A stretch of DNA of 64,000 nucleotides. Origin: Patescibacteria group bacterium (GTDB taxonomy: Bacteria > Patescibacteriota > Microgenomatia > UBA1400 > PJMF01). Each line of letters opens with the position of its first letter. Positions within the stretch are counted from its first letter, which is position 1. The stretch covers positions 118,274 through 182,273 of the forward strand of contig JBGTEY010000011.1 in the NCBI GenBank assembly GCA_041747555.1. Reading direction: 5' to 3'. The translations under genes and the position numbers were made by a program. Positions 17,831-56,543 of the stretch are shown here, one piece after another. The notes below the pieces were generated by a model. It saw only the letters and a list, made by a program, of their open reading frames with translations, did not search any database and was not told where the DNA came from.

Positions 17831-18220
17831 TTGAGACAGATTCCCAATATTGCAACGCTGGAGGGTGTATATGCAGACATCTTGTCAGCGTGCCAGAGTG
17901 GATTCTTTGTGGTGGAAAAAGTCAGTACTACAGAGGAAAAAGAAGCTTTGGAACAACTTCAATTGAAAGCAGAATCATTAAAAACAAACACACTCAATTT
18001 GCTGAAAGATTATCTTAAAAGCAAAAAGAAACGGACAAGTAAAGCTGAAAAGCTTCCTGTACAACCACCTGCTGAAATTGATGGGACCGCAGATTGGAAG
18101 CGAGGAATCTCCATTGGGTCTATGATAAACAAAATCAATACTCAAGCACATGAACTTTTTCAGTTCCTTCCAAAAACAGTTATCATGGCACCTGAGCAGC
18201 CAGAAACAACTAATCTCTGA
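17831..18220 (+). CDS. hypothetical protein
   Basis: 129 aa ORF ending exactly at the 3' end of the convergent tRNA-Thr; low-complexity, unsupported by motifs. Confidence 0.3.
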   Translation: MRQIPNIATLEGVYADILSACQSGFFVVEKVSTTEEKEALEQLQLKAESLKTNTLNLLKDYLKSKKKRTSKAEKLPVQPPAEIDGTADWKRGISIGSMINKINTQAHELFQFLPKTVIMAPEQPETTNL

Positions 18221-18293
18221 GCCATCTCGGGGATTCGAACCCCGGACCTCCTGTTTACAAAACAGGCGCTCTAACCAACTGAGCTAAGATGGC
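18220..18293 (-). tRNA. tRNA-Thr (anticodon TGT)
   Basis: Minus-strand cloverleaf GCCATCT..AGATGGC, anticodon loop TTTGTAA, T-arm CGGGGTTCGAATCCCCG. Confidence 0.85.
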
Positions 18294-18327
18294 ATGGACC
18301 ATTTAAGTGGTCGATTCTCTCAAACTG

Positions 18328-18410
18328 TGCCAGGTGAAGGATTCGAACCTACGAAGGCGTAAGCCAGCAGATTTACAGTCTGCCCCCGTTGACCGCTTGG
18401 GTAACCTGGC
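18328..18410 (-). tRNA. tRNA-Tyr (anticodon GTA)
   Basis: Minus-strand cloverleaf GCCAGGT..ACCTGGC, anticodon loop CTGTAAA, long variable arm, T-arm GGTTCGAATCC. Confidence 0.85.
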
Positions 18411-18421
18411 GTGGTGTGGTG

Positions 18422-18552
18422 TGATTGAAATGGCTTTATTAGAGTTGCGCTCAGCAACACTTCGCTTGGGGAATGTCTCTCCTCTTCGCTTCAATATCTT
18501 CTAGTTTTCCTGTCGAGACATTCAACAAACTCTAATAAAACCATTTCAATCA
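18422..18552. repeat. 131-bp element with 25-bp near-perfect terminal inverted repeats (MITE-like or structured RNA)
   Basis: TGATTGAAATGGCTTTATTAGAGTT (18422-18446) vs reverse complement of AACTCTAATAAAACCATTTCAATCA (18528-18552), 24/25 match; nested 9-bp inverted repeat GAATGTCTC/GAGACATTC. Confidence 0.4.
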
Positions 18553-18585
18553 CCGGCGACACAGTATTCGTTTTAAAAGAGCTTG

Positions 18586-18657
18586 AGCCCAGGGAGGGAA
18601 TCGGACCCTCGACCTCCATCTTACCAAGATGGCGTTCTGCCACTGAACTACCTGGGC
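18586..18657 (-). tRNA. tRNA-Thr (anticodon GGT)
   Basis: Minus-strand cloverleaf GCCCAGG..CCTGGGC, anticodon loop TTGGTAA; T-loop TCCGATT slightly atypical. Confidence 0.75.
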
Positions 18658-20046: not shown

Positions 20047-20388
20047 ATGTTGCTGTTTTTGGCAATAGTGTTTTTGATCTCTGGTTTTGTGGGATTTTTA
20101 TACACGCTCGATTTTAGTCCAAAACCTCAAGTGAATCCCTATCCTTCCCCAACGGTCACGACTGTCTCAGGCTGCAAGCGTGGTGGTTGTAGTAGTCAGC
20201 TCTGTGTTCCTACAGATTCTGAAGATGTAGTAAGCACCTGCGAGTGGCGTGCCGAGTATGGCTGCTACAGAGATGCAACGTGTGAGCGCCAAGCAGACGG
20301 AAATTGCGGTTTTACCATGAATGACACGCTTACTTCATGTCTTGAGGAAATCTATACGAATGCTCCGGCTCAGGATACTCTTTTTTGA
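20047..20388 (+). CDS. membrane-anchored Cys-rich small protein
   Basis: N-terminal TM helix then 8 Cys in ~60 aa; start uncertain (20005 or 20047). Confidence 0.4.
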   Translation: MLLFLAIVFLISGFVGFLYTLDFSPKPQVNPYPSPTVTTVSGCKRGGCSSQLCVPTDSEDVVSTCEWRAEYGCYRDATCERQADGNCGFTMNDTLTSCLEEIYTNAPAQDTLF

Positions 20389-24399: not shown

Positions 24400-24660
24400 C
24401 TAATACTGATCATGATTCACAACATCCGTGAGAAAAACATTCCCGTCAATCAGAACAAAAGTTATGCGAAGGTTGCCTTCTATCCAAATTGAATATTGAT
24501 CTGTTCGTTTTCCTTTAAGTTTGTGAGTCTTGAGTGACGGGTGTATAAAATCCTCTAGCAGAAGTTTGAGTTGCTTAGATACTCTTGCCCGTGCTCTGGC
24601 ATTTTTTACAACAACTTTTCTAAGCTTTCTTTTGAATCGATCACTGTAAATGAGCTTCAT
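24400..24660 (-). CDS. type II toxin, RelE/ParE superfamily (paralog of 14783..15061)
   Basis: HPSLKTHKLKG...W...NLRITF shares HPSL-x-HKL core with first toxin; ATGA overlap with upstream antitoxin. Confidence 0.7.
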   Translation of the reverse strand: MKLIYSDRFKRKLRKVVVKNARARARVSKQLKLLLEDFIHPSLKTHKLKGKRTDQYSIWIEGNLRITFVLIDGNVFLTDVVNHDQY

Positions 24661-24932
24661 AGACCTTCTAGAAACTCATCTATTTCATCTTTTTCGAGCG
24701 CGTGGGTTTTCTTTAGTTTATATTCCCGTAGCTCTTGTAATAACGTTCCTTCCGTCTTGCTACTCATGGGAAATGTTGGCATATCAATATCTTTAACATC
24801 GTCCAAAACAAGGTGCTTTATGTACGTCGACAAGGTTAGTCCAAATTTATCAGCCCTACTCTGGGCAAACTGACGGAGCTCATCAGGCAACGTGACTTTT
24901 ATTTGGCTTGAAGTGGTTGACGTTGTTGGCAT
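24657..24932 (-). CDS. type II antitoxin (RHH-like), paralog of 15064..15324
   Basis: IKVTLPDELRQFAQ...LTLSTYIKHLV aligns with first antitoxin. Confidence 0.65.
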   Translation of the reverse strand: MPTTSTTSSQIKVTLPDELRQFAQSRADKFGLTLSTYIKHLVLDDVKDIDMPTFPMSSKTEGTLLQELREYKLKKTHALEKDEIDEFLEGL

Positions 24933-24995: not shown

Positions 24996-26771
24996 TCATG
25001 CTTCCATGACATTCGTCTTTTGCTCTATTTCCTCAAGTACACGCTCCACAAAACTGCTCAACAGCATAACATCCTGCTTCTTTCCCTGTCGTTTCCTCAC
25101 CGCCACCGACTTCGCCTCAGCCTCCTTATCCCCGACCACCAGCGTGTACGGAACCTTCTCCATTGCCGCAGCACGAATTTTAGCCTGGAGTCGCTCTGAT
25201 CGATCATCGAGCTCTACTCTGATGCCCGCCTCACTTAACGTGGCAACTACTTCTTGAGCATATTCATTGTGCGCATCAGTAATCGGCAACACCTTGACCT
25301 GCACCGGAGACACCCAGATAGGAAATGCCCCCGCTGTGTGCTCAATATAGACCGACAAAAAACGCTCCAATGAGCCCATTAATGCAAAATGGATCATAAC
25401 GGGCGTCTTCTGTGTACCATCGCTATCTGCATATTCAAGTCCAAAGCGAGCTGGCTGGACAAAATCAAGTTGCGGTGTCGCCAACTGCCATTCTCTTCCC
25501 AAAGCGTCACGAACCATAAAGTCTATTTTTGGGCCGTAAAATGCTGCTTCACCGTCGGCTTCGTAGTAGTCGAGGTTTTTTTCTTTGGCGATCTCGAGGA
25601 GTGTTGATTGTGCGAGATCCCAGAGTGAATCTTCTCCCAGGTATTTTTCTGGCTCTGCAGGGTCACGATAGGACAAGCGCGCTCGATAGGTCATGCCAAG
25701 AGCGTCATAAAACTGCTGAACGATCTCGATCATTTCACTGTAGACGTCTTTGATTTGTTCTCTGGTACAAAATACGTGCGAGTCATCTTGCGTGACTGAC
25801 CGCACTCGAGATAATCCCATCAGTTCACCGGCTTTTTCATCACGGTAAATCGTGGTTGTCTCAAGGTATTTGATCGGCAAATCGCGATAACTGCGAGGCC
25901 GCGACGCAAAAATTTGCTGATGATGCGGGCAATTCATGGGTTTCATCACCATTTCATCGCTCGTTTCTTGGCTTTCGACCAAGAATAGCTCATCACCAAA
26001 CTTATCCCAGTGTCCTGAGACCTTGTAGAGGTCGTTTTTGGTAATATGTGGGACCCATACTCTCTGGAACCCCTTCTTGAGGCGCAAGCCTTGAGAAAAG
26101 TCGTTGAGGAGTTCTCTCAATAACGCGCCCTTTGGGGTAAAGAGCGGTAGGCCCTTCCCCACTAGATCGGAGAACACAAATAGGTCGAGTTCTTGACCCA
26201 ATTTGCGGTGGTCGCGCGTGCGTGCCTCCTCGAGCATCTTGAGATGGTCATACAGCTCCTGTTTGCTCTGAAAAGCCGTGCCGTAGATACGAGTTAACAT
26301 GGTATTCTTCTCATCCCCACGCCAGTATGCTCCCGCAAGTGACAACAACTTGAAGTGCTTGAGATCTTTAGATGGATGTTCGCAATGTCCGCCCCTGCAG
26401 AGATCGGTAAAATCACCAGACGTGTACATGGTGAGCGTTTGACCTTCTGTAGAGAATTCTTCAATAAGCTCCTTTTTGTAGCTATTACTGCCATAAAATG
26501 CCAGCGCTTCGTCTCTTTTTACCTCTTTTCTGTCAAATTTATCCCATTTTTTGACAATTTCTTTCATTTTTTGCTCAATTTCGGGCAAATCGTGCTCAGA
26601 AATGGGTGTTTTGAACTCAAAATCATAGTAAAAGCCATTTTCAATGGCCGGACCTATGGTTGGTAGCGCATCTGGATACAGTTCAAGCACCGCTGCAGCG
26701 AGTAAGTGGGCGCAGGAGTGGCGTAATTCGTCCAGATTGTGGTCATTTCCGTTATTTTTAGAGTGTGACAT
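24996..26771 (-). CDS. thrS: threonine--tRNA ligase (N-terminal TGS domain absent)
   Basis: HSCAHLL editing-domain start, class II motifs (FRDE..., HRAILGS-like, GxGxGxER), anticodon-binding C-terminus; 591 aa. Confidence 0.92.
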   Translation of the reverse strand: MSHSKNNGNDHNLDELRHSCAHLLAAAVLELYPDALPTIGPAIENGFYYDFEFKTPISEHDLPEIEQKMKEIVKKWDKFDRKEVKRDEALAFYGSNSYKKELIEEFSTEGQTLTMYTSGDFTDLCRGGHCEHPSKDLKHFKLLSLAGAYWRGDEKNTMLTRIYGTAFQSKQELYDHLKMLEEARTRDHRKLGQELDLFVFSDLVGKGLPLFTPKGALLRELLNDFSQGLRLKKGFQRVWVPHITKNDLYKVSGHWDKFGDELFLVESQETSDEMVMKPMNCPHHQQIFASRPRSYRDLPIKYLETTTIYRDEKAGELMGLSRVRSVTQDDSHVFCTREQIKDVYSEMIEIVQQFYDALGMTYRARLSYRDPAEPEKYLGEDSLWDLAQSTLLEIAKEKNLDYYEADGEAAFYGPKIDFMVRDALGREWQLATPQLDFVQPARFGLEYADSDGTQKTPVMIHFALMGSLERFLSVYIEHTAGAFPIWVSPVQVKVLPITDAHNEYAQEVVATLSEAGIRVELDDRSERLQAKIRAAAMEKVPYTLVVGDKEAEAKSVAVRKRQGKKQDVMLLSSFVERVLEEIEQKTNVMEA

Positions 26772-26914
26772 GTATTCCTTTCAATTAGATGACATGAGCC
26801 ATCTTTGGGCTATTATCGCGGTGAAAGCGGTTTTGAGCAAGTCCCTGCCTGGGGGTAGCGCTTTCGCCTGGCGTGCTGGCTCTGTACAGGTCTTGAGCGT
26901 AATAAATCCCCTCA

Positions 26915-26945
26915 AGACACAAAAAACCCTCCGTCTAAGGGAGGG
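26915..26945 (-). terminator. intrinsic terminator/attenuator hairpin in thrS leader
   Basis: Minus-strand CCCTCC-CTTAGAC-GGAGGG hairpin followed by TTTTTTGTG; lies between leader ORF and thrS start. Confidence 0.55.
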
Positions 26946-26972
26946 TGTCGCACGTCACGTCCACTCCTCGCC

Positions 26973-27020
26973 TTAGGCGGAGTTGGTAGTGGTAGTGGTG
27001 ACTAAAATGCTTGGTTGCAT
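26973..27020 (-). CDS. candidate thrS leader peptide MQPSILVTTTTTNSA
   Basis: 15-codon ORF with ACC ACT ACC ACT ACC run ending 28 nt upstream of terminator hairpin; weak RBS. Confidence 0.4.
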   Translation of the reverse strand: MQPSILVTTTTTNSA

Positions 27021-27227
27021 GGGGGTATTGTAGCATATGTAACTCGTTAGAACTTTTTATGCTAAATTACATCCTAATAACTTTGGTTATTGACAATACT
27101 CACACTTATAGTGTTTAATTACCTCTGCACCTTAACATTCCGATGGCAAGAGAAATGAGAAACCGATCATAGTTTGATGGGTTTTTGGTTTCTCTTGCCG
27201 AGAAAAAAATCATAAGGAGTATATTTA

Positions 27228-27752
27228 ATGAACAAAGTAATATTGAGGAAAGTCGCCATTGTTTTACTGATGGCTGGACTGATTTGTACAAAAGCGTTCG
27301 CTACTAGCGTCAGCGCATGCTGGGACCCCACGATCTGTGGGGACTCTGCAGAGCCGCCGCCGCCAGTTGAGACAACGCCGCAGACAGATACAATCACCAC
27401 CATTGGGGTGGACACGATCGGCACCGTGATCTTGGTGCCAAATCATACCACCACACCGACCCCTCCCACCTCCAGAACCGCTCCGGTTGTCCAATCTGGA
27501 GTAGCTGGACTCAGCTACACGGTCACTCGTGGCGATACCTTGTACGGAATAGCCAGCAGACATGGGAGCACAGTAGGCGCCATTCAGATGGCCAACGGCA
27601 TGGGCAACAGCACGGTGCTGTACCCGGGTGATGTCCTCATCATCCCGGGGGCAAGCTTCGTGGCTCCACCCGCGCAGGCACCACCTCCAGTTCAGGCGCC
27701 CATCGTGGTGACTCCACCGTCTCCCTACCATTCCTTTGATGGGAACTGGTAG
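27228..27752 (+). CDS. secreted LysM-domain protein
   Basis: Signal peptide, Pro-rich linker, LysM motif YTVTRGDTLYGIASRHG...GDVLIIP. Confidence 0.8.
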   Translation: MNKVILRKVAIVLLMAGLICTKAFATSVSACWDPTICGDSAEPPPPVETTPQTDTITTIGVDTIGTVILVPNHTTTPTPPTSRTAPVVQSGVAGLSYTVTRGDTLYGIASRHGSTVGAIQMANGMGNSTVLYPGDVLIIPGASFVAPPAQAPPPVQAPIVVTPPSPYHSFDGNW

Positions 27753-53723: not shown

Positions 53724-55694
53724 CTACATTTTCTCGACGGCAGGAATACCTAGTGTTTCAAATCCGTGCTTGAAGACTTGCGTTACAGCAAGCGTAGTGG
53801 CCAAATAGAGCGTGGATTCTGCGTCTGATTCCGTCATTTTTTCTGGAACTATCTGTTGCTTGCCATAAAACGCGTTAAACAGCTGCGCTAGGCTATGAAG
53901 ATAGGAACAAATGAGATGCGGACTTGTTTGAGCAGCGGCTTGTGCTACTACATCAGAATATTGCAAAAGGTTTCGCAAGATACCAAACGCATCCATATTT
54001 TTGTTCATGTCAAATTGTGTCGATGTGTTAAGTACTGTATCAAAATACTCAGCAATATTCGTTTCTGTATAACCTATTTTAGTTGCCTTTTCTAAGAGGC
54101 TCAAACCCCTCACGAGCGTGTATTGCAAATACGGTCCCGAATCTCCCTGAAACGACAGCGACTGATCAAAACTAAATGCAATATCAGAGCCGATACTCTG
54201 GCTCAAAAAGGCGTACTTGATGGCACCGAGACCAACTGCCTCAGCAATTGCTTGACGTTCCGTATCAGGCAACTCAGGGCGTGACTCGTCCACTACTGCC
54301 TTGATTCTCTGGGTTGCCTCCTCTACCAGCCACTCTGCGGTGATGATTTTGCCCGTTCTGCTGGACATTTTTCCCTCTGGGAGCCTGACCATTCCGTGTG
54401 ATATGTGAGTGGTTTTCTTTTGGAGATCGGGATTGATCAGCTCAAGCACCTTGAGAAGGACCTTGAAATACTCGGCTATTTCATTGCCGGTGATTACGAT
54501 TGACTTGTCATAGGGAAAGCGTCTGTGCTTCTCTGGTGCGAGGCCGAGTTCTTTGGCTTCGTAGGTTGGGAGTCCGAGTGAATTGATAAATACTCGACTA
54601 TGCAATCCGTATTTTTCTCCTGGGAAAATTATCGCTCCTTGGCTTTTTTCAAAAATGCCTTTAGGGAGATTTTCCATGACAATTTTATACCCGTACTCGG
54701 CGACTAAACTCTCGAAAAAATACTCATCAAAGTGCTTGCCGTTAGCGCGGGGTTTCATGCCGATTTTGCCGTACATGACTTCAAAATATTCGAGGCTCCA
54801 CGCGCGACCGACCTGATAGAGTGCCTTGATGACATCGTAATCCAGCTTGGTTTTGGAAACAAAGTCCAGGTATGGCACTTGAGGTTTCCAATTTTCTGTT
54901 TCTTCTAAATATTCTTGGCCTGCTCTGTAAGTGAGATAATTAACGTCTTTAATTTCAGACTCAGCTTGCTTGGATTCGGTGTACTCGGTGGCTCCAAGTG
55001 CATAGCTTTTACCGAGTAGTTTAATTCTTTCGTTGAGTGGTTTTTTTGACCAAATTTCGATTGCTGATTCTGCAGACTCAAGGGAAGTAATCTCGAGTAT
55101 TTGCATCATTCCCCAGACACTTTTTGCTACGTGCATTCCGACATCACCCTGATATGCGACTCGTTTGACATCGGCGCCAACTGCCTCATAAATTCTTGCA
55201 ATCGAATCACCTACAGCGTTGCTGTACAAGTGACCTATATGCAGCTCTTTAAATGGATTTGGATCAGTGAACTCACACATGACTTTTTGACCAACAAACT
55301 CGGGCAAAATGGTATCAACTTCACCCCTCACAAAGGTTTTTGCGTGCGAAAGTACGGCAAATGTCGAAAGCTTGAAATTAATAAAACCTGGTCCTGCGAT
55401 TTCAATTGACTCTATATGCGAATTCAGTGGTGAGTCAACTAATTGCTCTTTGAGTGCAGAAACGATCTGATTTGCAACATCCCGCGGTGACTTTCCAAGA
55501 CTTGCTGATAATTGCAAGGCTATATTCGTGGTGAAATCGCCATGATCTGCCGACGCTGGATACCTTACCTGAATCTCAGCATCAGACACGAAATTACGCG
55601 CTTTAAGCGCGTTGGCAATCATGGTTTGAATTACATTGATCGTGACAAAAAGCTCGTCATTAATTTTTTTGGTGTGTATCGTGCTTTTTTTCAT
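53724..55694 (-). CDS. argS: arginine--tRNA ligase
   Basis: IAGPGFINF, HIGH motif (HIGHLYS), DALR-type C-terminus ending ...VEKM; start at MKKSTIH. Confidence 0.9.
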   Translation of the reverse strand: MKKSTIHTKKINDELFVTINVIQTMIANALKARNFVSDAEIQVRYPASADHGDFTTNIALQLSASLGKSPRDVANQIVSALKEQLVDSPLNSHIESIEIAGPGFINFKLSTFAVLSHAKTFVRGEVDTILPEFVGQKVMCEFTDPNPFKELHIGHLYSNAVGDSIARIYEAVGADVKRVAYQGDVGMHVAKSVWGMMQILEITSLESAESAIEIWSKKPLNERIKLLGKSYALGATEYTESKQAESEIKDVNYLTYRAGQEYLEETENWKPQVPYLDFVSKTKLDYDVIKALYQVGRAWSLEYFEVMYGKIGMKPRANGKHFDEYFFESLVAEYGYKIVMENLPKGIFEKSQGAIIFPGEKYGLHSRVFINSLGLPTYEAKELGLAPEKHRRFPYDKSIVITGNEIAEYFKVLLKVLELINPDLQKKTTHISHGMVRLPEGKMSSRTGKIITAEWLVEEATQRIKAVVDESRPELPDTERQAIAEAVGLGAIKYAFLSQSIGSDIAFSFDQSLSFQGDSGPYLQYTLVRGLSLLEKATKIGYTETNIAEYFDTVLNTSTQFDMNKNMDAFGILRNLLQYSDVVAQAAAQTSPHLICSYLHSLAQLFNAFYGKQQIVPEKMTESDAESTLYLATTLAVTQVFKHGFETLGIPAVEKM

Positions 55695-56543
55695 AGAAAG
55701 TGCTTGTACTGTGTAGCAATTGTACCGCAAGACTGTCAAATCCGCTCTAGAAACACTACCGATGTAGATATGTGTGCAGTTTGTGGTTTGCTGATTTTTG
55801 TTAATATCTTATGGGATTTATGTGCGATGTTAAAAAAAGCGTTGATTACTTTTTTTTATTGCAATTTACCAACGTACTCTCCCAACTACTCATTGTTGAT
55901 TCACTCCGCAACAACCGAATGTATACCGTAACTAACTGAGTACAAAATGTATTACTCAGTGAGATGGTCATCGGACTCATTGTAGCTTCTAGTTGATGTA
56001 TAAAATGTGTTCAATTTAAGCTGAATAATAATAGTATGTTCGTATTTTGTTCGGTTGGTTATTTTTTTACTAACATGCGTGATTTAATGTAAAAATAAGC
56101 ACCAATCTCAAATTTTAAAATGCTGAGAAATTACAAAAGTAGAGTTCCTCAACCAACAGAAGCAACGATAAGTGAAAGTAGGCGCTCGAGCACCAACTTT
56201 ATTATTTCGCCTGGTGAACCCTGCTTGCTGAATTACAATAACGCAAATCGCATGATTGACCTCCCAAAATCATTTACTTGAGGCAAATGGCAGTTAATTT
56301 TGGGTTATGTTCGTTCTATTACATGCGCAAAACGCCCGCACCAAATCAAGTTTGAAGCACATCAATGCTCATCTCTTCAAAAAAAAAGCCTAAAAGATGG
56401 CGTCGTGTGGATTTTTACAAAATTGCCGTGGGCAATTTACTCAAGAAATCGATATTTGCTACTTGCACGAACTAAAAATATATGGAACAGTTGTCAACAA
56501 GCTCATTAACAGCAATACATGCAGACTACTCCTTTCCTCGAGA

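What the first reader, a model, noticed from the sequence alone, without database searches (positions are those of the whole stretch)
26772..27020. Thr-codon leader peptide plus terminator upstream of thrS: candidate ribosome-mediated attenuator for a tRNA synthetase
On the minus strand a 15-codon ORF (ATG CAA CCA AGC ATT TTA GTC ACC ACT ACC ACT ACC AAC TCC GCC TAA = MQPSILVTTTTTNSA) lies ~250 nt upstream of thrS. Its stop is ~30 nt upstream of a GC-rich hairpin followed by TTTTTTGTG, and the stop codon sits inside a second small hairpin (CTCCGCC-TAA-GGCGAGGAG). Five consecutive Thr codons directly ahead of an intrinsic terminator is the arrangement of classic leader-peptide attenuators (thrL, hisL, and pheM for pheST). 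For ThrRS this would couple transcription read-through to charged tRNA-Thr availability. It differs from the known thrS controls, which are a T-box in Firmicutes and translational operator mimicry in E. coli; to my knowledge a Thr-codon leader-peptide attenuator has not been described for thrS. No strong SD precedes the leader ATG, which weakens the case.
Basis: partly seen in the sequence, partly recalled or inferred. Interest (0 to 1): 0.7.

Follow-up and report, generated by a model that had tools for sequence, protein, structure and literature searches.

The report
Leaderless threonine leader-peptide attenuator of thrS
A 15-codon mini-gene with five threonine codons, apparently translated from the very first base of its transcript, sits in front of a transcription stop signal upstream of the threonyl-tRNA synthetase gene of a Patescibacteria (CPR) bacterium; it looks like a classic amino-acid-sensing attenuator and recurs in related uncultured bacteria.

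Summary
On the minus strand there is a mini-ORF at 27020..26973 (MQPSILVTTTTTNSA), a hairpin whose loop is the stop codon, and an intrinsic terminator at 26946..26921. All lie 249 nt upstream of thrS (26771..24996).

- **Recurrence.** Seven other Patescibacteria thrS loci carry a short Thr-run ORF plus terminator in the same place. Their sequences differ, apart from one clear homologue, L081.
- **Specificity.** In a blind scan of 653 kb, all six Thr-rich mini-ORF-plus-terminator hits lay directly upstream of thrS.
- **Antiterminator.** Each locus has an antiterminator whose 5' strand begins at or just after the leader stop codon. In silico, a ribosome stalled on the Thr codons leaves it free. 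A ribosome at the stop codon masks it, so the terminator forms.
- **Covariation.** Two compensatory changes between the window and L081 support the antiterminator helix.
- **Missing Shine-Dalgarno explained.** In 8 of 8 loci the start codon lies 6-9 nt after a strong -10 box, so the leader mRNA is inferred to be leaderless.
- **Same slot, other sensor.** Some relatives carry a T-box-like leader there instead.

The mechanism is a known kind: pheST, Streptomyces leuS and trpS, and a proposed leaderless thrL-thrS in S. lividans. I found no description for Patescibacteria. Nothing has been tested experimentally.

The parts
27027..27035 (-). Extended -10 promoter element TGcTACAAT. The -35 is poor (AGTTCT at a 16-nt spacing).
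   Evidence: Read from the sequence. My own promoter criterion is met in 8 of 8 leader loci against 1.2% of background ATG/GTG triplets. The same TGcTACAAT precedes other genes in the window. The consensus scan, which requires a -35, did not report it.
27020..27026 (-). Discriminator ACCCCC plus the inferred transcription start at the A of the leader ATG (27020). There is no Shine-Dalgarno sequence.
   Evidence: Six nt separate the -10 box from the ATG. The spacing is 6-9 nt in all eight loci. The start site is inferred, not mapped.
26973..27020 (-). Leader ORF, 15 codons plus TAA: MQPSILVTTTTTNSA.
   Evidence: A homologous ORF, MKPLIVTATTTISA, lies upstream of the thrS of L081, whose ThrRS is 80% identical.
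26985..26999 (-). Regulatory run of five Thr codons: ACC ACT ACC ACT ACC.
   Evidence: tRNA-Thr(GGU), which reads ACC and ACU, is encoded in the window at 18585..18657.
26963..26983 (-). Hairpin 1:2, ACUCCGCC-UAA-GGCGAGGAGU, with the stop codon as its loop. It pairs region 2 when no ribosome is present (the anti-antiterminator role).
   Evidence: Read from the sequence. The equivalent UCUCC-GCUUGA-GGAGA forms in L081.
26929..26982 (-). Antiterminator: a long imperfect helix pairing CUCCGCCUAAGGCGAGGAGUG (end of the ORF, stop codon and region 2) with CACCCUCCCUUAGACGGAG (terminator 5' arm, loop and part of the 3' arm).
   Evidence: It is the minimum-free-energy fold. It forms when a ribosome is stalled on the Thr codons and is lost when a ribosome sits at the stop codon. 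The fold is -20.7 kcal/mol against -12.1 +/- 2.7 in shuffles. Two compensatory pairs distinguish it from L081.
26921..26946 (-). Intrinsic terminator: ACCCUCC-CUUAGAC-GGAGGGU, with a U6 tract that starts at the last base of the stem.
   Evidence: All seven stem pairs are identical in L081.
26772..26920 (-). Rest of the thrS 5' UTR. It includes a hairpin UCUUGAG..CUCAAGA, a weak promoter-like site (TTGCTC-17-GATAAT at 26840..26812) and the thrS Shine-Dalgarno AAGGA at 26780..26776.
   Evidence: Read from the sequence. The fold is no better than shuffles, z = -0.6. The region is not conserved in L081.
24996..26771 (-). thrS, the regulated gene: threonyl-tRNA synthetase, 591 aa, without a TGS domain.
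   Evidence: Pfam matches. The closest named homologues are Patescibacteria.
27228..27752 (+). Divergently transcribed LysM-domain gene with an AAGGAG Shine-Dalgarno. It is context only, and shows that no same-strand gene can read into the leader.
   Evidence: Pfam LysM, E = 8.5e-15. The Shine-Dalgarno was read.

Best explanation
This is a ribosome-mediated (leader-peptide) transcription attenuator that ties thrS transcription to the supply of charged tRNA-Thr.

**Proposed sequence of events**
1. Transcription starts at or next to the A of the leader ATG (27020), from an extended -10 promoter. This step is inferred.
2. A 70S ribosome loads on the 5'-terminal AUG and translates the 15-codon leader. 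This step is inferred.
3. If Thr-tRNA is scarce, the ribosome stalls on the five Thr codons (26999..26985). It covers region 1 only. Region 2 (GGCGAGGAGUG) then pairs with the terminator's 5' arm as that arm is made. The terminator cannot form and RNA polymerase reads into thrS.
4. If Thr-tRNA is plentiful, the ribosome reaches the UAA, which lies directly in front of region 2. It masks region 2, the terminator 26946..26926 plus U6 forms, and transcription stops.

**Shown versus inferred**
- Shown in silico: the sequence features, the alternative folds and their dependence on ribosome position, recurrence in relatives, covariation, and the promoter geometry.
- Inferred: the start site, leaderless translation, kinetic coupling of the ribosome to the polymerase, and the physiological response.
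For: **Anatomy and folds**
- The ORF, hairpins, terminator and thrS are as described.
- The minimum-free-energy fold of the leader is the long antiterminator helix.
- Ribosome-masking folds were run in six loci: the window, L081, L004, L018, L029 and L088. With the RNA truncated before the terminator's 3' arm, a stall on the Thr codons leaves an antiterminator that pairs the 5' arm. A ribosome at the stop codon removes it (full-length folds).
- The L082/83 variant behaves the same way.
- Antiterminator stability beats composition-matched shuffles in 7 of 7 loci. The fraction of shuffles at least as stable is 0.000 to 0.040.

**Recurrence**
Thr-run leaders with terminators lie upstream of thrS in:

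| Locus | Leader peptide |
|---|---|
| L081 | MKPLIVTATTTISA |
| L088 | MITQNIFITTVTTTPQ |
| L178 | MKSQIALQTTTTTS |
| L004 | MSLLNFVIVTTTTCPR |
| L018 | MILTTTTTTR |
| L029 | MLLKKFLLPTTTTTTMKR |
| L082/83 | ...QATTTANSNEGGGS |

Sources.

**Specificity and conservation**
- All six Thr hits in the 653 kb scan lie upstream of thrS.
- Thr is conserved at codon level with all four ACN codons in use, which points to selection on translation rather than on an RNA motif.
- The window and L081 differ by C-G to U-A and A-U to G-C in the helix that pairs the stop-codon region with the terminator loop. The stop codon UAA/UGA covaries with the loop UUA/UCA.
- Conservation between the window and L081 runs from the promoter to the terminator and then stops.

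**Leaderless start**
- A -10 box ends 6-9 nt before the start codon in 8 of 8 loci, against a 1.2% background.
- Several long ORFs in the window have a forced first start codon in the same geometry. One is a CobW gene whose Pfam domain begins at residue 3.
- The upstream gene is divergent, so the thrS transcript must start within this intergenic region.

**Same slot in relatives**
- T-box-like leaders lie upstream of thrS in L050, L023, L084 and L027.
Against: - There are no transcript or ribosome data. The start site, the termination site and any response to threonine are unmeasured.
- The -35 in the window is poor, and the consensus promoter scan did not flag the promoter.
- A weak promoter-like site downstream of the terminator (TTGCTC-17-GATAAT, 26840..26812) could give unattenuated thrS transcription.
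- Several close relatives have no leader: P0007 (L085-87), P0016 (L177) and P0021 (L179/180). The element is therefore dispensable and patchy.
- In full-length thermodynamic folds of L018 and L029 the terminator wins in every state. For those two loci the model needs kinetic, co-transcriptional folding.
- With no ribosome, the truncated folds of the window, L004, L029 and L088 give the antiterminator rather than hairpin 1:2. This departs from the classic trp scheme.
- Covariation rests on only two sequences.
Confidence: 0.8

Rival explanations
1. Chance: an ordinary terminator, or a small independent transcript, that happens to be preceded by a short ACN-rich reading frame with no regulatory role.
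For: Short ORFs and terminator-like hairpins are common; there are 59 terminator-like sites in the window. A second run of ACN codons in the window is only the antisense of a coding region.
Against: - The composite recurs upstream of thrS in seven other loci with unrelated nucleotide sequences, and nowhere else in 653 kb.
- The upstream gene is divergent, so the terminator ends no upstream gene.
- Antiterminator complementarity is significant in 7 of 7 loci.
- The promoter-to-start geometry is found in 8 of 8 loci.
Confidence: 0.03
2. A tRNA-sensing RNA (a T-box or a reduced T-box-like riboswitch). The ACC/ACU triplets would act as specifier codons that bind the tRNA-Thr anticodon directly, with no translation.
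For: T-box-like leaders lie upstream of thrS in some Patescibacteria relatives. UGG-containing motifs (GUGGA, GGUGGU) occur in region 2 of several leaders.
Against: - There is no T-box match in the window even at E <= 10, and none at gathering score in the other leader-type loci.
- The element is about 100 nt, with no Stem I or T-box sequence.
- Every example keeps an in-frame start codon at the predicted 5' end and a stop codon abutting region 2.
- Thr is conserved as codons with wobble variation.
- The UGG motifs are explained by pairing with CCA in the ACC-ACN codons.
Confidence: 0.04
3. The mini-ORF and terminator are real, but the transcript starts further upstream. The ORF, lacking a Shine-Dalgarno, would not be translated. 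The element would then be a constitutive or protein-controlled terminator, for example ThrRS autoregulation or a Rho/NusG-type control.
For: No start site has been mapped. The window's -35 is poor. ThrRS is an RNA-binding protein that autoregulates in E. coli (established knowledge, also cited in PMC2965389).
Against: - A -10 box at a fixed 6-9 nt from the start codon in 8 of 8 loci is hard to explain otherwise.
- Leaderless starts fit other genes of this genome.
- The Thr run and the placement of the stop codon would have no reason to be conserved.
- No anticodon-arm-like operator is evident next to the thrS Shine-Dalgarno, and that region is not conserved.
Confidence: 0.1

Closest known systems
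Classical leader-peptide attenuators of amino-acid operons (E. coli trpL, hisL, thrL; Rfam Thr_leader RF00506)
   Same: A short ORF with tandem cognate codons, alternative antiterminator and terminator hairpins, an intrinsic terminator, and read-out by ribosome position. Like thrL, the sensor is a run of Thr codons.
   Different: - It controls a tRNA synthetase, not a biosynthetic operon.
- There is no sequence relationship: no RF00506 match at E <= 10.
- The leader has no Shine-Dalgarno and is inferred to be leaderless.
- It carries no Ile codons as a second signal.
- The host is a Patescibacteria bacterium.
Leader-peptide attenuators of aminoacyl-tRNA synthetase genes: pheM-pheST (gamma-proteobacteria), leuS and trpS (Streptomyces; PMC1262725), a His leader upstream of a hisS paralogue in Bacillus (PMC2965389)
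   Same: The same logic, with cognate-codon stalling raising synthetase transcription. The same evolutionary pattern is documented, with a T-box and a leader peptide exchanging at one gene (PMC2965389).
   Different: A different amino acid and gene, and a different phylum. Here the stop codon directly abuts, or lies inside, the 5' strand of the antiterminator.
Leaderless thrL upstream of thrS in Streptomyces lividans TK24 (PMC8079986)
   Same: The closest precedent: a leaderless short ORF upstream of thrS, proposed as a threonine-dependent attenuator on the basis of mapped transcription start sites.
   Different: - The Streptomyces peptide (MKRVRPFLETTPGFVPAR) has only two Thr.
- Its authors found no clear Rho-independent terminator.
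- Here there are 3-6 Thr in tandem, a canonical terminator, a demonstrable antiterminator and recurrence across loci, but no transcript data.
- No sequence similarity is evident by eye; the two were not formally compared.
Leaderless polycysteine short ORFs acting as Cys-responsive attenuators in mycobacteria (bioRxiv 10.1101/834739)
   Same: Leaderless short ORFs with tandem cognate codons that control downstream operon expression through ribosome stalling.
   Different: The details of the mycobacterial mechanism were not read here; only the title and the start of the abstract were seen. The amino acid, targets and phylum all differ.
T-box leaders (RF00230) and the E. coli thrS translational operator
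   Same: The same regulated gene and the same physiological signal, tRNA-Thr charging or ThrRS sufficiency. T-box-like leaders occupy the same position in some Patescibacteria relatives.
   Different: The window has no T-box features. No tRNA-like operator is evident at the thrS Shine-Dalgarno. The sensor here is a translating ribosome.

Membership tests
Ribosome-mediated (leader-peptide) transcription attenuator | A short ORF in the 5' leader with tandem codons for the amino acid relevant to the downstream gene | tested here: met
   A 15-codon ORF with five consecutive Thr codons lies upstream of thrS. Relatives carry 3-6 Thr codons in tandem.
Ribosome-mediated (leader-peptide) transcription attenuator | An intrinsic terminator between the leader ORF and the structural gene | tested here: met
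   A 7-bp stem with 5 G-C pairs plus U6 lies at 26946..26921. A terminator is present in all eight loci, with its 5' arm starting roughly 22-35 nt after the stop codon.
Ribosome-mediated (leader-peptide) transcription attenuator | An antiterminator mutually exclusive with the terminator | tested here: met
   It is more stable than shuffles in 7 of 7 loci. Two compensatory pairs separate the window from L081.
Ribosome-mediated (leader-peptide) transcription attenuator | Ribosome position (stalled on regulatory codons versus at the stop codon) selects between the two structures | tested here: met
   Masking folds in six loci and in the L082 variant. These are in silico, with an assumed footprint of 10 nt beyond the A-site codon.
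Ribosome-mediated (leader-peptide) transcription attenuator | The leader ORF is translated (has a functional initiation signal) | tested here: inconclusive
   There is no Shine-Dalgarno. A -10 box 6-9 nt upstream in 8 of 8 loci implies a leaderless AUG or GUG, and leaderless-type starts occur at ordinary genes in the window. Neither the start site nor translation has been measured.
Ribosome-mediated (leader-peptide) transcription attenuator | Read-through rises when the cognate charged tRNA is limiting | not testable with these tools
   This needs Term-seq, reporter assays or in vitro coupled assays.
Rfam Thr_leader (RF00506, enterobacterial thrL) | A match to the covariance model | tested here: not met
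   No hit at gathering score or at E <= 10 in 26700..27300.
T-box leader (RF00230) | Stem I with a specifier loop, and the conserved T-box sequence in an antiterminator bulge | tested here: not met
   No RF00230 match in the window at E <= 10. My T-box motif regex also found nothing. By contrast L050, L023, L084 and L027 match at E = 4.6e-17 to 1e-2.
E. coli-type thrS translational operator | tRNA-Thr anticodon-arm mimics flanking the thrS Shine-Dalgarno | tested here: inconclusive
   The 150 nt before thrS fold no better than shuffles, z = -0.6, and are not conserved in L081. No dedicated search for anticodon-like loops was run.

The most novel reading that the evidence does not exclude
Leaderless, minimal leader-peptide attenuators are a recurrent and repeatedly re-invented amino-acid sensor across the Candidate Phyla Radiation (Patescibacteria).
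- A 70S ribosome loads on the 5'-terminal AUG.
- The stop codon abuts the antiterminator.
- The device alternates with T-boxes at the same synthetase gene.

If true, this would be the first direct sequence-level evidence for transcription-translation coupling and routine leaderless initiation in these uncultured, ribosome-reduced bacteria, which have few transcription regulators.
Probability: 0.5. Interest if true: 0.6.

Novelty: new member of a known kind. Interest (0 to 1): 0.47.

Why it matters
Patescibacteria are mostly uncultured, have tiny genomes and generally cannot make their own amino acids. How they regulate genes is almost unknown.

**What the element offers**
- A compact device of about 100 nt that reads threonine supply through the ribosome gives a concrete, testable example of gene regulation in this group.
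- It implies that transcription and translation are coupled there.
- It implies that mRNAs starting directly at the AUG are translated.
- It supplies a natural comparison between two interchangeable sensors, leader peptide and T-box, at one gene.

**Practical consequences**
- Such mini-ORFs are missed by gene callers.
- The recurring -10-to-ATG geometry could improve annotation of gene starts in these genomes.

The mechanism itself is textbook, so the advance is in where it occurs and in the leaderless design, not in principle.

Tried and rejected
- **Rfam on the window.** The gathering-score search and the permissive search of 26700..27300 gave only tRNAs and chance-level hits. There was no Thr_leader and no T-box.
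- **Metagenome DNA scan.** The terminator pattern ACACCCTCCC-N3-7-GGAGGGTTTTT returned 88 stretches. None had a Thr-run ORF. The single hit with thrS downstream (L122) is an unrelated terminator, separated from thrS by another gene and a tRNA. No further close homologues were gained.
- **Genome-collection scan with ThrRS.** Closer relatives had to be fetched one at a time.
- **Failed look-ups.** P0005 and P0013 gave no DNA.
- **L049.** It has a promoter-adjacent Thr-rich ORF (MQRAITTTTIFSLTPTTRGRGRA). However, the terminator's 5' arm lies inside the ORF, and the ribosome logic is ambiguous or even inverted. It was not counted as support.
- **Second ACN run.** The run at 20196 on the minus strand is antisense to a coding ORF.
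- **Other attenuators in the window.** argS (55739..53724) has no Arg-codon leader or terminator. The scan for promoter-adjacent short ORFs with terminators found only the thrS leader and two false positives.
- **L006.** The run of N upstream of its thrS is a 100-N scaffold gap, not a masked element.
- **L011.** The weak Thr_leader hits downstream of its thrS are a bidirectional terminator.

Full report
**1. What is in the sequence**

On the minus strand the mini-ORF starts with ATG at 27020. It reads CAA CCA AGC ATT TTA GTC ACC ACT ACC ACT ACC AAC TCC GCC and ends with TAA at 26975..26973, encoding MQPSILVTTTTTNSA. The five Thr codons lie at 26999..26985.

The stop codon is the loop of a small hairpin, ACUCCGCC-UAA-GGCGAGGAGU (26983..26963). 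Twenty-six nt after the stop codon lies an intrinsic terminator, ACCCUCC-CUUAGAC-GGAGGGU plus UUUUUUGUG (26946..26918). The terminator scan found it independently.

thrS starts at 26771, behind an AAGGA Shine-Dalgarno. It encodes a 591-aa ThrRS with tRNA_SAD, class II core and anticodon-binding domains. The gene upstream is a LysM-domain gene on the opposite strand (27228..27752, AAGGAG Shine-Dalgarno). The 207-nt spacer is therefore a divergent promoter region, and nothing can read into the leader from upstream.

ThrRS homologues place the organism in the Candidate Phyla Radiation (Patescibacteria). The closest named proteins are from Woesebacteria, Kerfeldbacteria, Nomurabacteria, Roizmanbacteria and Levybacteria, at 65-68% identity.

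**2. Is it more than chance?**

- Runs of five or more ACN codons occur twice in the window, counting all six frames. Simulation expects 0.05. The second run, at 20196, is merely antisense to a coding ORF.
- I scanned 653 kb on both strands: the window plus the 88 loci held at that point. The target was any short ORF with at least 4 of 6 identical residues, followed by a terminator starting 10-60 nt after its stop codon.
- The scan returned 32 hits. The six Thr hits all lie directly upstream of thrS on the thrS strand.
- Hits for other amino acids (S, L, K, R and others) are scattered and weak.
- The thrS-upstream zone is about 2.4% of the sequence scanned, so six out of six there is not chance.

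**3. Recurrence in relatives**

| Locus | Relation / label | Leader peptide |
|---|---|---|
| L081 | ThrRS 80% identical | MKPLIVTATTTISA |
| L088 | 70% identical | MITQNIFITTVTTTPQ |
| L178 | 69% identical | MKSQIALQTTTTTS |
| L004 | Roizmanbacteria | MSLLNFVIVTTTTCPR |
| L018 | Paceibacterota | MILTTTTTTR |
| L029 | Paceibacterota | MLLKKFLLPTTTTTTMKR |
| L082/L083 | 73% identical | 63-codon Shine-Dalgarno-led ORF ending ...QATTTANSNEGGGS |

- L081 is a clear homologue of the window's element. Its terminator, ACACCCTCCCTCAATCGGAGGGTTTTTT, has the same stem.
- In every locus the terminator's 5' arm starts roughly 22-35 nt after the stop codon.
- Apart from the window and L081, the nucleotide sequences are unrelated. 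What is kept is the run of Thr codons, using all four ACN codons, and the geometry.
- Alignment of the window with L081 shows conservation from the promoter to the terminator that ends right after the U tract.
- The element is patchy. Three close relatives lack it: L085-87, L177 and L179/180 (in L179/180 thrC abuts thrS).
- None of about 30 Bacteroidota and other non-CPR loci has it.
- Overall, roughly 8 of about 50 distinct Patescibacteria thrS loci carry it.

**4. How it would work**

The minimum-free-energy fold of the window's leader is a long imperfect helix. It pairs CUCCGCCUAAGGCGAGGAGUG (end of the ORF, stop codon and region 2) with CACCCUCCCUUAGACGGAG (terminator 5' arm, loop and part of the 3' arm). 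This helix excludes the terminator.

I then folded each leader with the 5' part masked, to mimic a ribosome that covers 10 nt beyond its A-site codon.

- With the RNA truncated before the terminator's 3' arm (the co-transcriptional situation), a ribosome on the Thr codons leaves an antiterminator that pairs the 5' arm.
- A ribosome at the stop codon removes that antiterminator.
- This held in all six loci tested and in the L082 variant.
- The common design is that the 5' strand of the antiterminator begins at or just after the leader stop codon.
- The antiterminators are far more stable than composition-matched shuffles in 7 of 7 loci. For example, the window gives -20.7 against -12.1 +/- 2.7 kcal/mol, and L029 gives -16.6 against -6.4 +/- 2.4. 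The fraction of shuffles at least as stable is 0.000 to 0.040.
- Between the window and L081, two pairs of the 6-bp helix joining the stop-codon region to the terminator loop changed on both sides. These are C-G to U-A and A-U to G-C, so that stop codon UAA/UGA covaries with loop UUA/UCA. A further 17 pairs, including all seven terminator pairs, are unchanged.

Caveats:
- In full-length thermodynamic folds of L018 and L029 the terminator always wins, so those two need a kinetic argument.
- Without any ribosome, several truncated folds give the antiterminator rather than hairpin 1:2.

**5. The missing Shine-Dalgarno**

The leader ATG lies 6 nt after an extended -10 box, TGcTACAAT (27035..27027). 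The same arrangement precedes the start codon in all eight leaders:
- The -10 box has either a TGn extension or a perfect TTGACA -35 at 16-17 nt.
- It ends 6-9 nt before the ATG or GTG.
- None of the eight has a Shine-Dalgarno.
- Only 1.2% of 19,241 background ATG/GTG triplets meet the same criterion.

The simplest reading is that transcription starts at, or within about 3 nt of, the start codon, so the leader ORF is translated from a leaderless mRNA.

This mode looks routine in the genome. Seven long ORFs in the window have their only possible start codon in the same geometry. They include a CobW gene whose Pfam domain starts at residue 3 and a 796-aa AMP-binding enzyme. Other genes, thrS among them, have a normal Shine-Dalgarno.

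The start site is inferred. The consensus scan, which needs a -35, did not report this promoter.

**6. Alternatives**

- **T-box or other tRNA-binding RNA.** This is excluded for the window. There is no RF00230 hit at E <= 10 and no T-box motif. The start-codon, Thr-codon and stop-codon frame is what is conserved.
- **T-box-like leaders in relatives.** These do occupy the same position upstream of thrS in L050 (84 bits, E = 4.6e-17), L023, L084 (ThrRS 71% identical) and L027. L011 has the motif GCTCGGTGGAACCGCGG plus a terminator. All score below Rfam's gathering threshold. The same slot is thus filled by either of two attenuation sensors, as documented for hisS (PMC2965389).
- **Chance.** This is excluded by sections 2 to 4.
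- **An untranslated ORF under some other control.** This cannot be excluded without transcript data, but it leaves the promoter spacing and the conserved Thr codons unexplained.
- **A weak promoter-like site downstream of the terminator** (TTGCTC-17-GATAAT, 26840..26812). It may provide basal thrS expression. It is not conserved in L081.

**7. Comparison with what is known**

The mechanism is the classical leader-peptide attenuator. Precedents for synthetase genes are:
- pheM-pheST in gamma-proteobacteria, and leuS and trpS in Streptomyces (PMC1262725);
- a His leader upstream of a hisS paralogue in Bacillus (PMC2965389);
- closest of all, a leaderless thrL upstream of thrS in Streptomyces lividans. 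That peptide has two Thr and no clear terminator (PMC8079986).

Leaderless cognate-codon short ORFs are also known as Cys-responsive attenuators in mycobacteria (bioRxiv 10.1101/834739).

The window's element does not match Rfam's Thr_leader. Four searches of the paper library found nothing on leader peptides, T-boxes or leaderless mRNAs as regulators in Patescibacteria. That library lacks most subscription journals, so absence is not proof.

**8. Verdict**

I rate it a new member of a known kind: a leaderless Thr leader-peptide attenuator of thrS, recurrent but patchy in Patescibacteria. Confidence in the mechanism is about 0.8. Confidence in the leaderless start alone is somewhat lower, at about 0.7. 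Interest is moderate. The principle is textbook, but the element offers a concrete and testable handle on regulation, coupling and leaderless translation in a poorly understood group.

Noticed in passing
window +31190, +34489, -45854, -15324, -14681, -12642, -1742: Seven long ORFs have their only possible start codon 6-8 nt after a strong -10 box, with an in-frame stop 3-28 codons upstream and no Shine-Dalgarno. Examples are TGcTATACT-cccctc-ATG and TTGAGA-16-TATACT-accccc-ATG. Leaderless mRNAs seem common in this genome, alongside Shine-Dalgarno-led genes.
   Followed up: partly
L050 2691-2929; L023 595-739; L084 3-213; L027 2771-2931; L011 about 2880-2965: T-box-like leaders with terminators lie upstream of thrS in other Patescibacteria-type loci. 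All score below Rfam's gathering threshold (84 to 28 bits against 93), which suggests divergent T-boxes that standard annotation misses. The specifier codons were not checked.
   Followed up: partly
L179 1-1193 and 1201-2952 (also L180): Threonine synthase (thrC) lies 8 nt upstream of thrS in one relative, an unusual pairing of biosynthesis and synthetase genes. There is no attenuator between them.
   Followed up: no
window 24400..24932 (-): A YafQ-like toxin ORF (24400..24660; Pfam E = 1.7e-5, below the gathering score) overlaps a 91-aa ORF (24657..24932) directly downstream of thrS. This is probably a toxin-antitoxin pair sitting where relatives have infC-rpmI-rplT or rplA-rplK.
   Followed up: no
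window about 27130..27195: An imperfect inverted repeat, GGCAAGAGAAACC...GGTTTCTCatttCTCTTGCC, lies in the divergent intergenic region on the LysM-gene side. It could be an operator or a 5' UTR structure for that gene.
   Followed up: no
L049 2870-2990: A promoter-adjacent GTG-start ORF, MQRAITTTTIFSLTPTTRGRGRA, lies upstream of thrS. The 5' arm of the terminator-like hairpin lies inside the ORF, so the ribosome logic differs from the other loci or may be inverted. The contig is labelled Pseudomonadales, but its ThrRS is of the Patescibacteria type.
   Followed up: partly
L082 2633-2824 (= L083 408-599): In this relative the Thr-run leader is the tail of a 63-codon ORF with a good Shine-Dalgarno (AAAGGAG). 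The sequence after the Thr codons resembles the window's (ACTACC..AACTCC..GAGG..GTGG), as if the stop codon had been lost and the ORF extended. The antiterminator logic is kept.
   Followed up: partly
window 18219..18657 (-): A tRNA cluster Thr(UGU)-Tyr(GUA)-Thr(GGU). tRNA-Thr(GGU) reads the ACC and ACU codons that make up the window's leader run.
   Followed up: no
window 53724..55739 (-) and upstream to 56540: argS, the other synthetase gene in the window, has a long upstream region of about 800 nt with no Arg-codon mini-ORF and no terminator next to the gene.
   Followed up: yes
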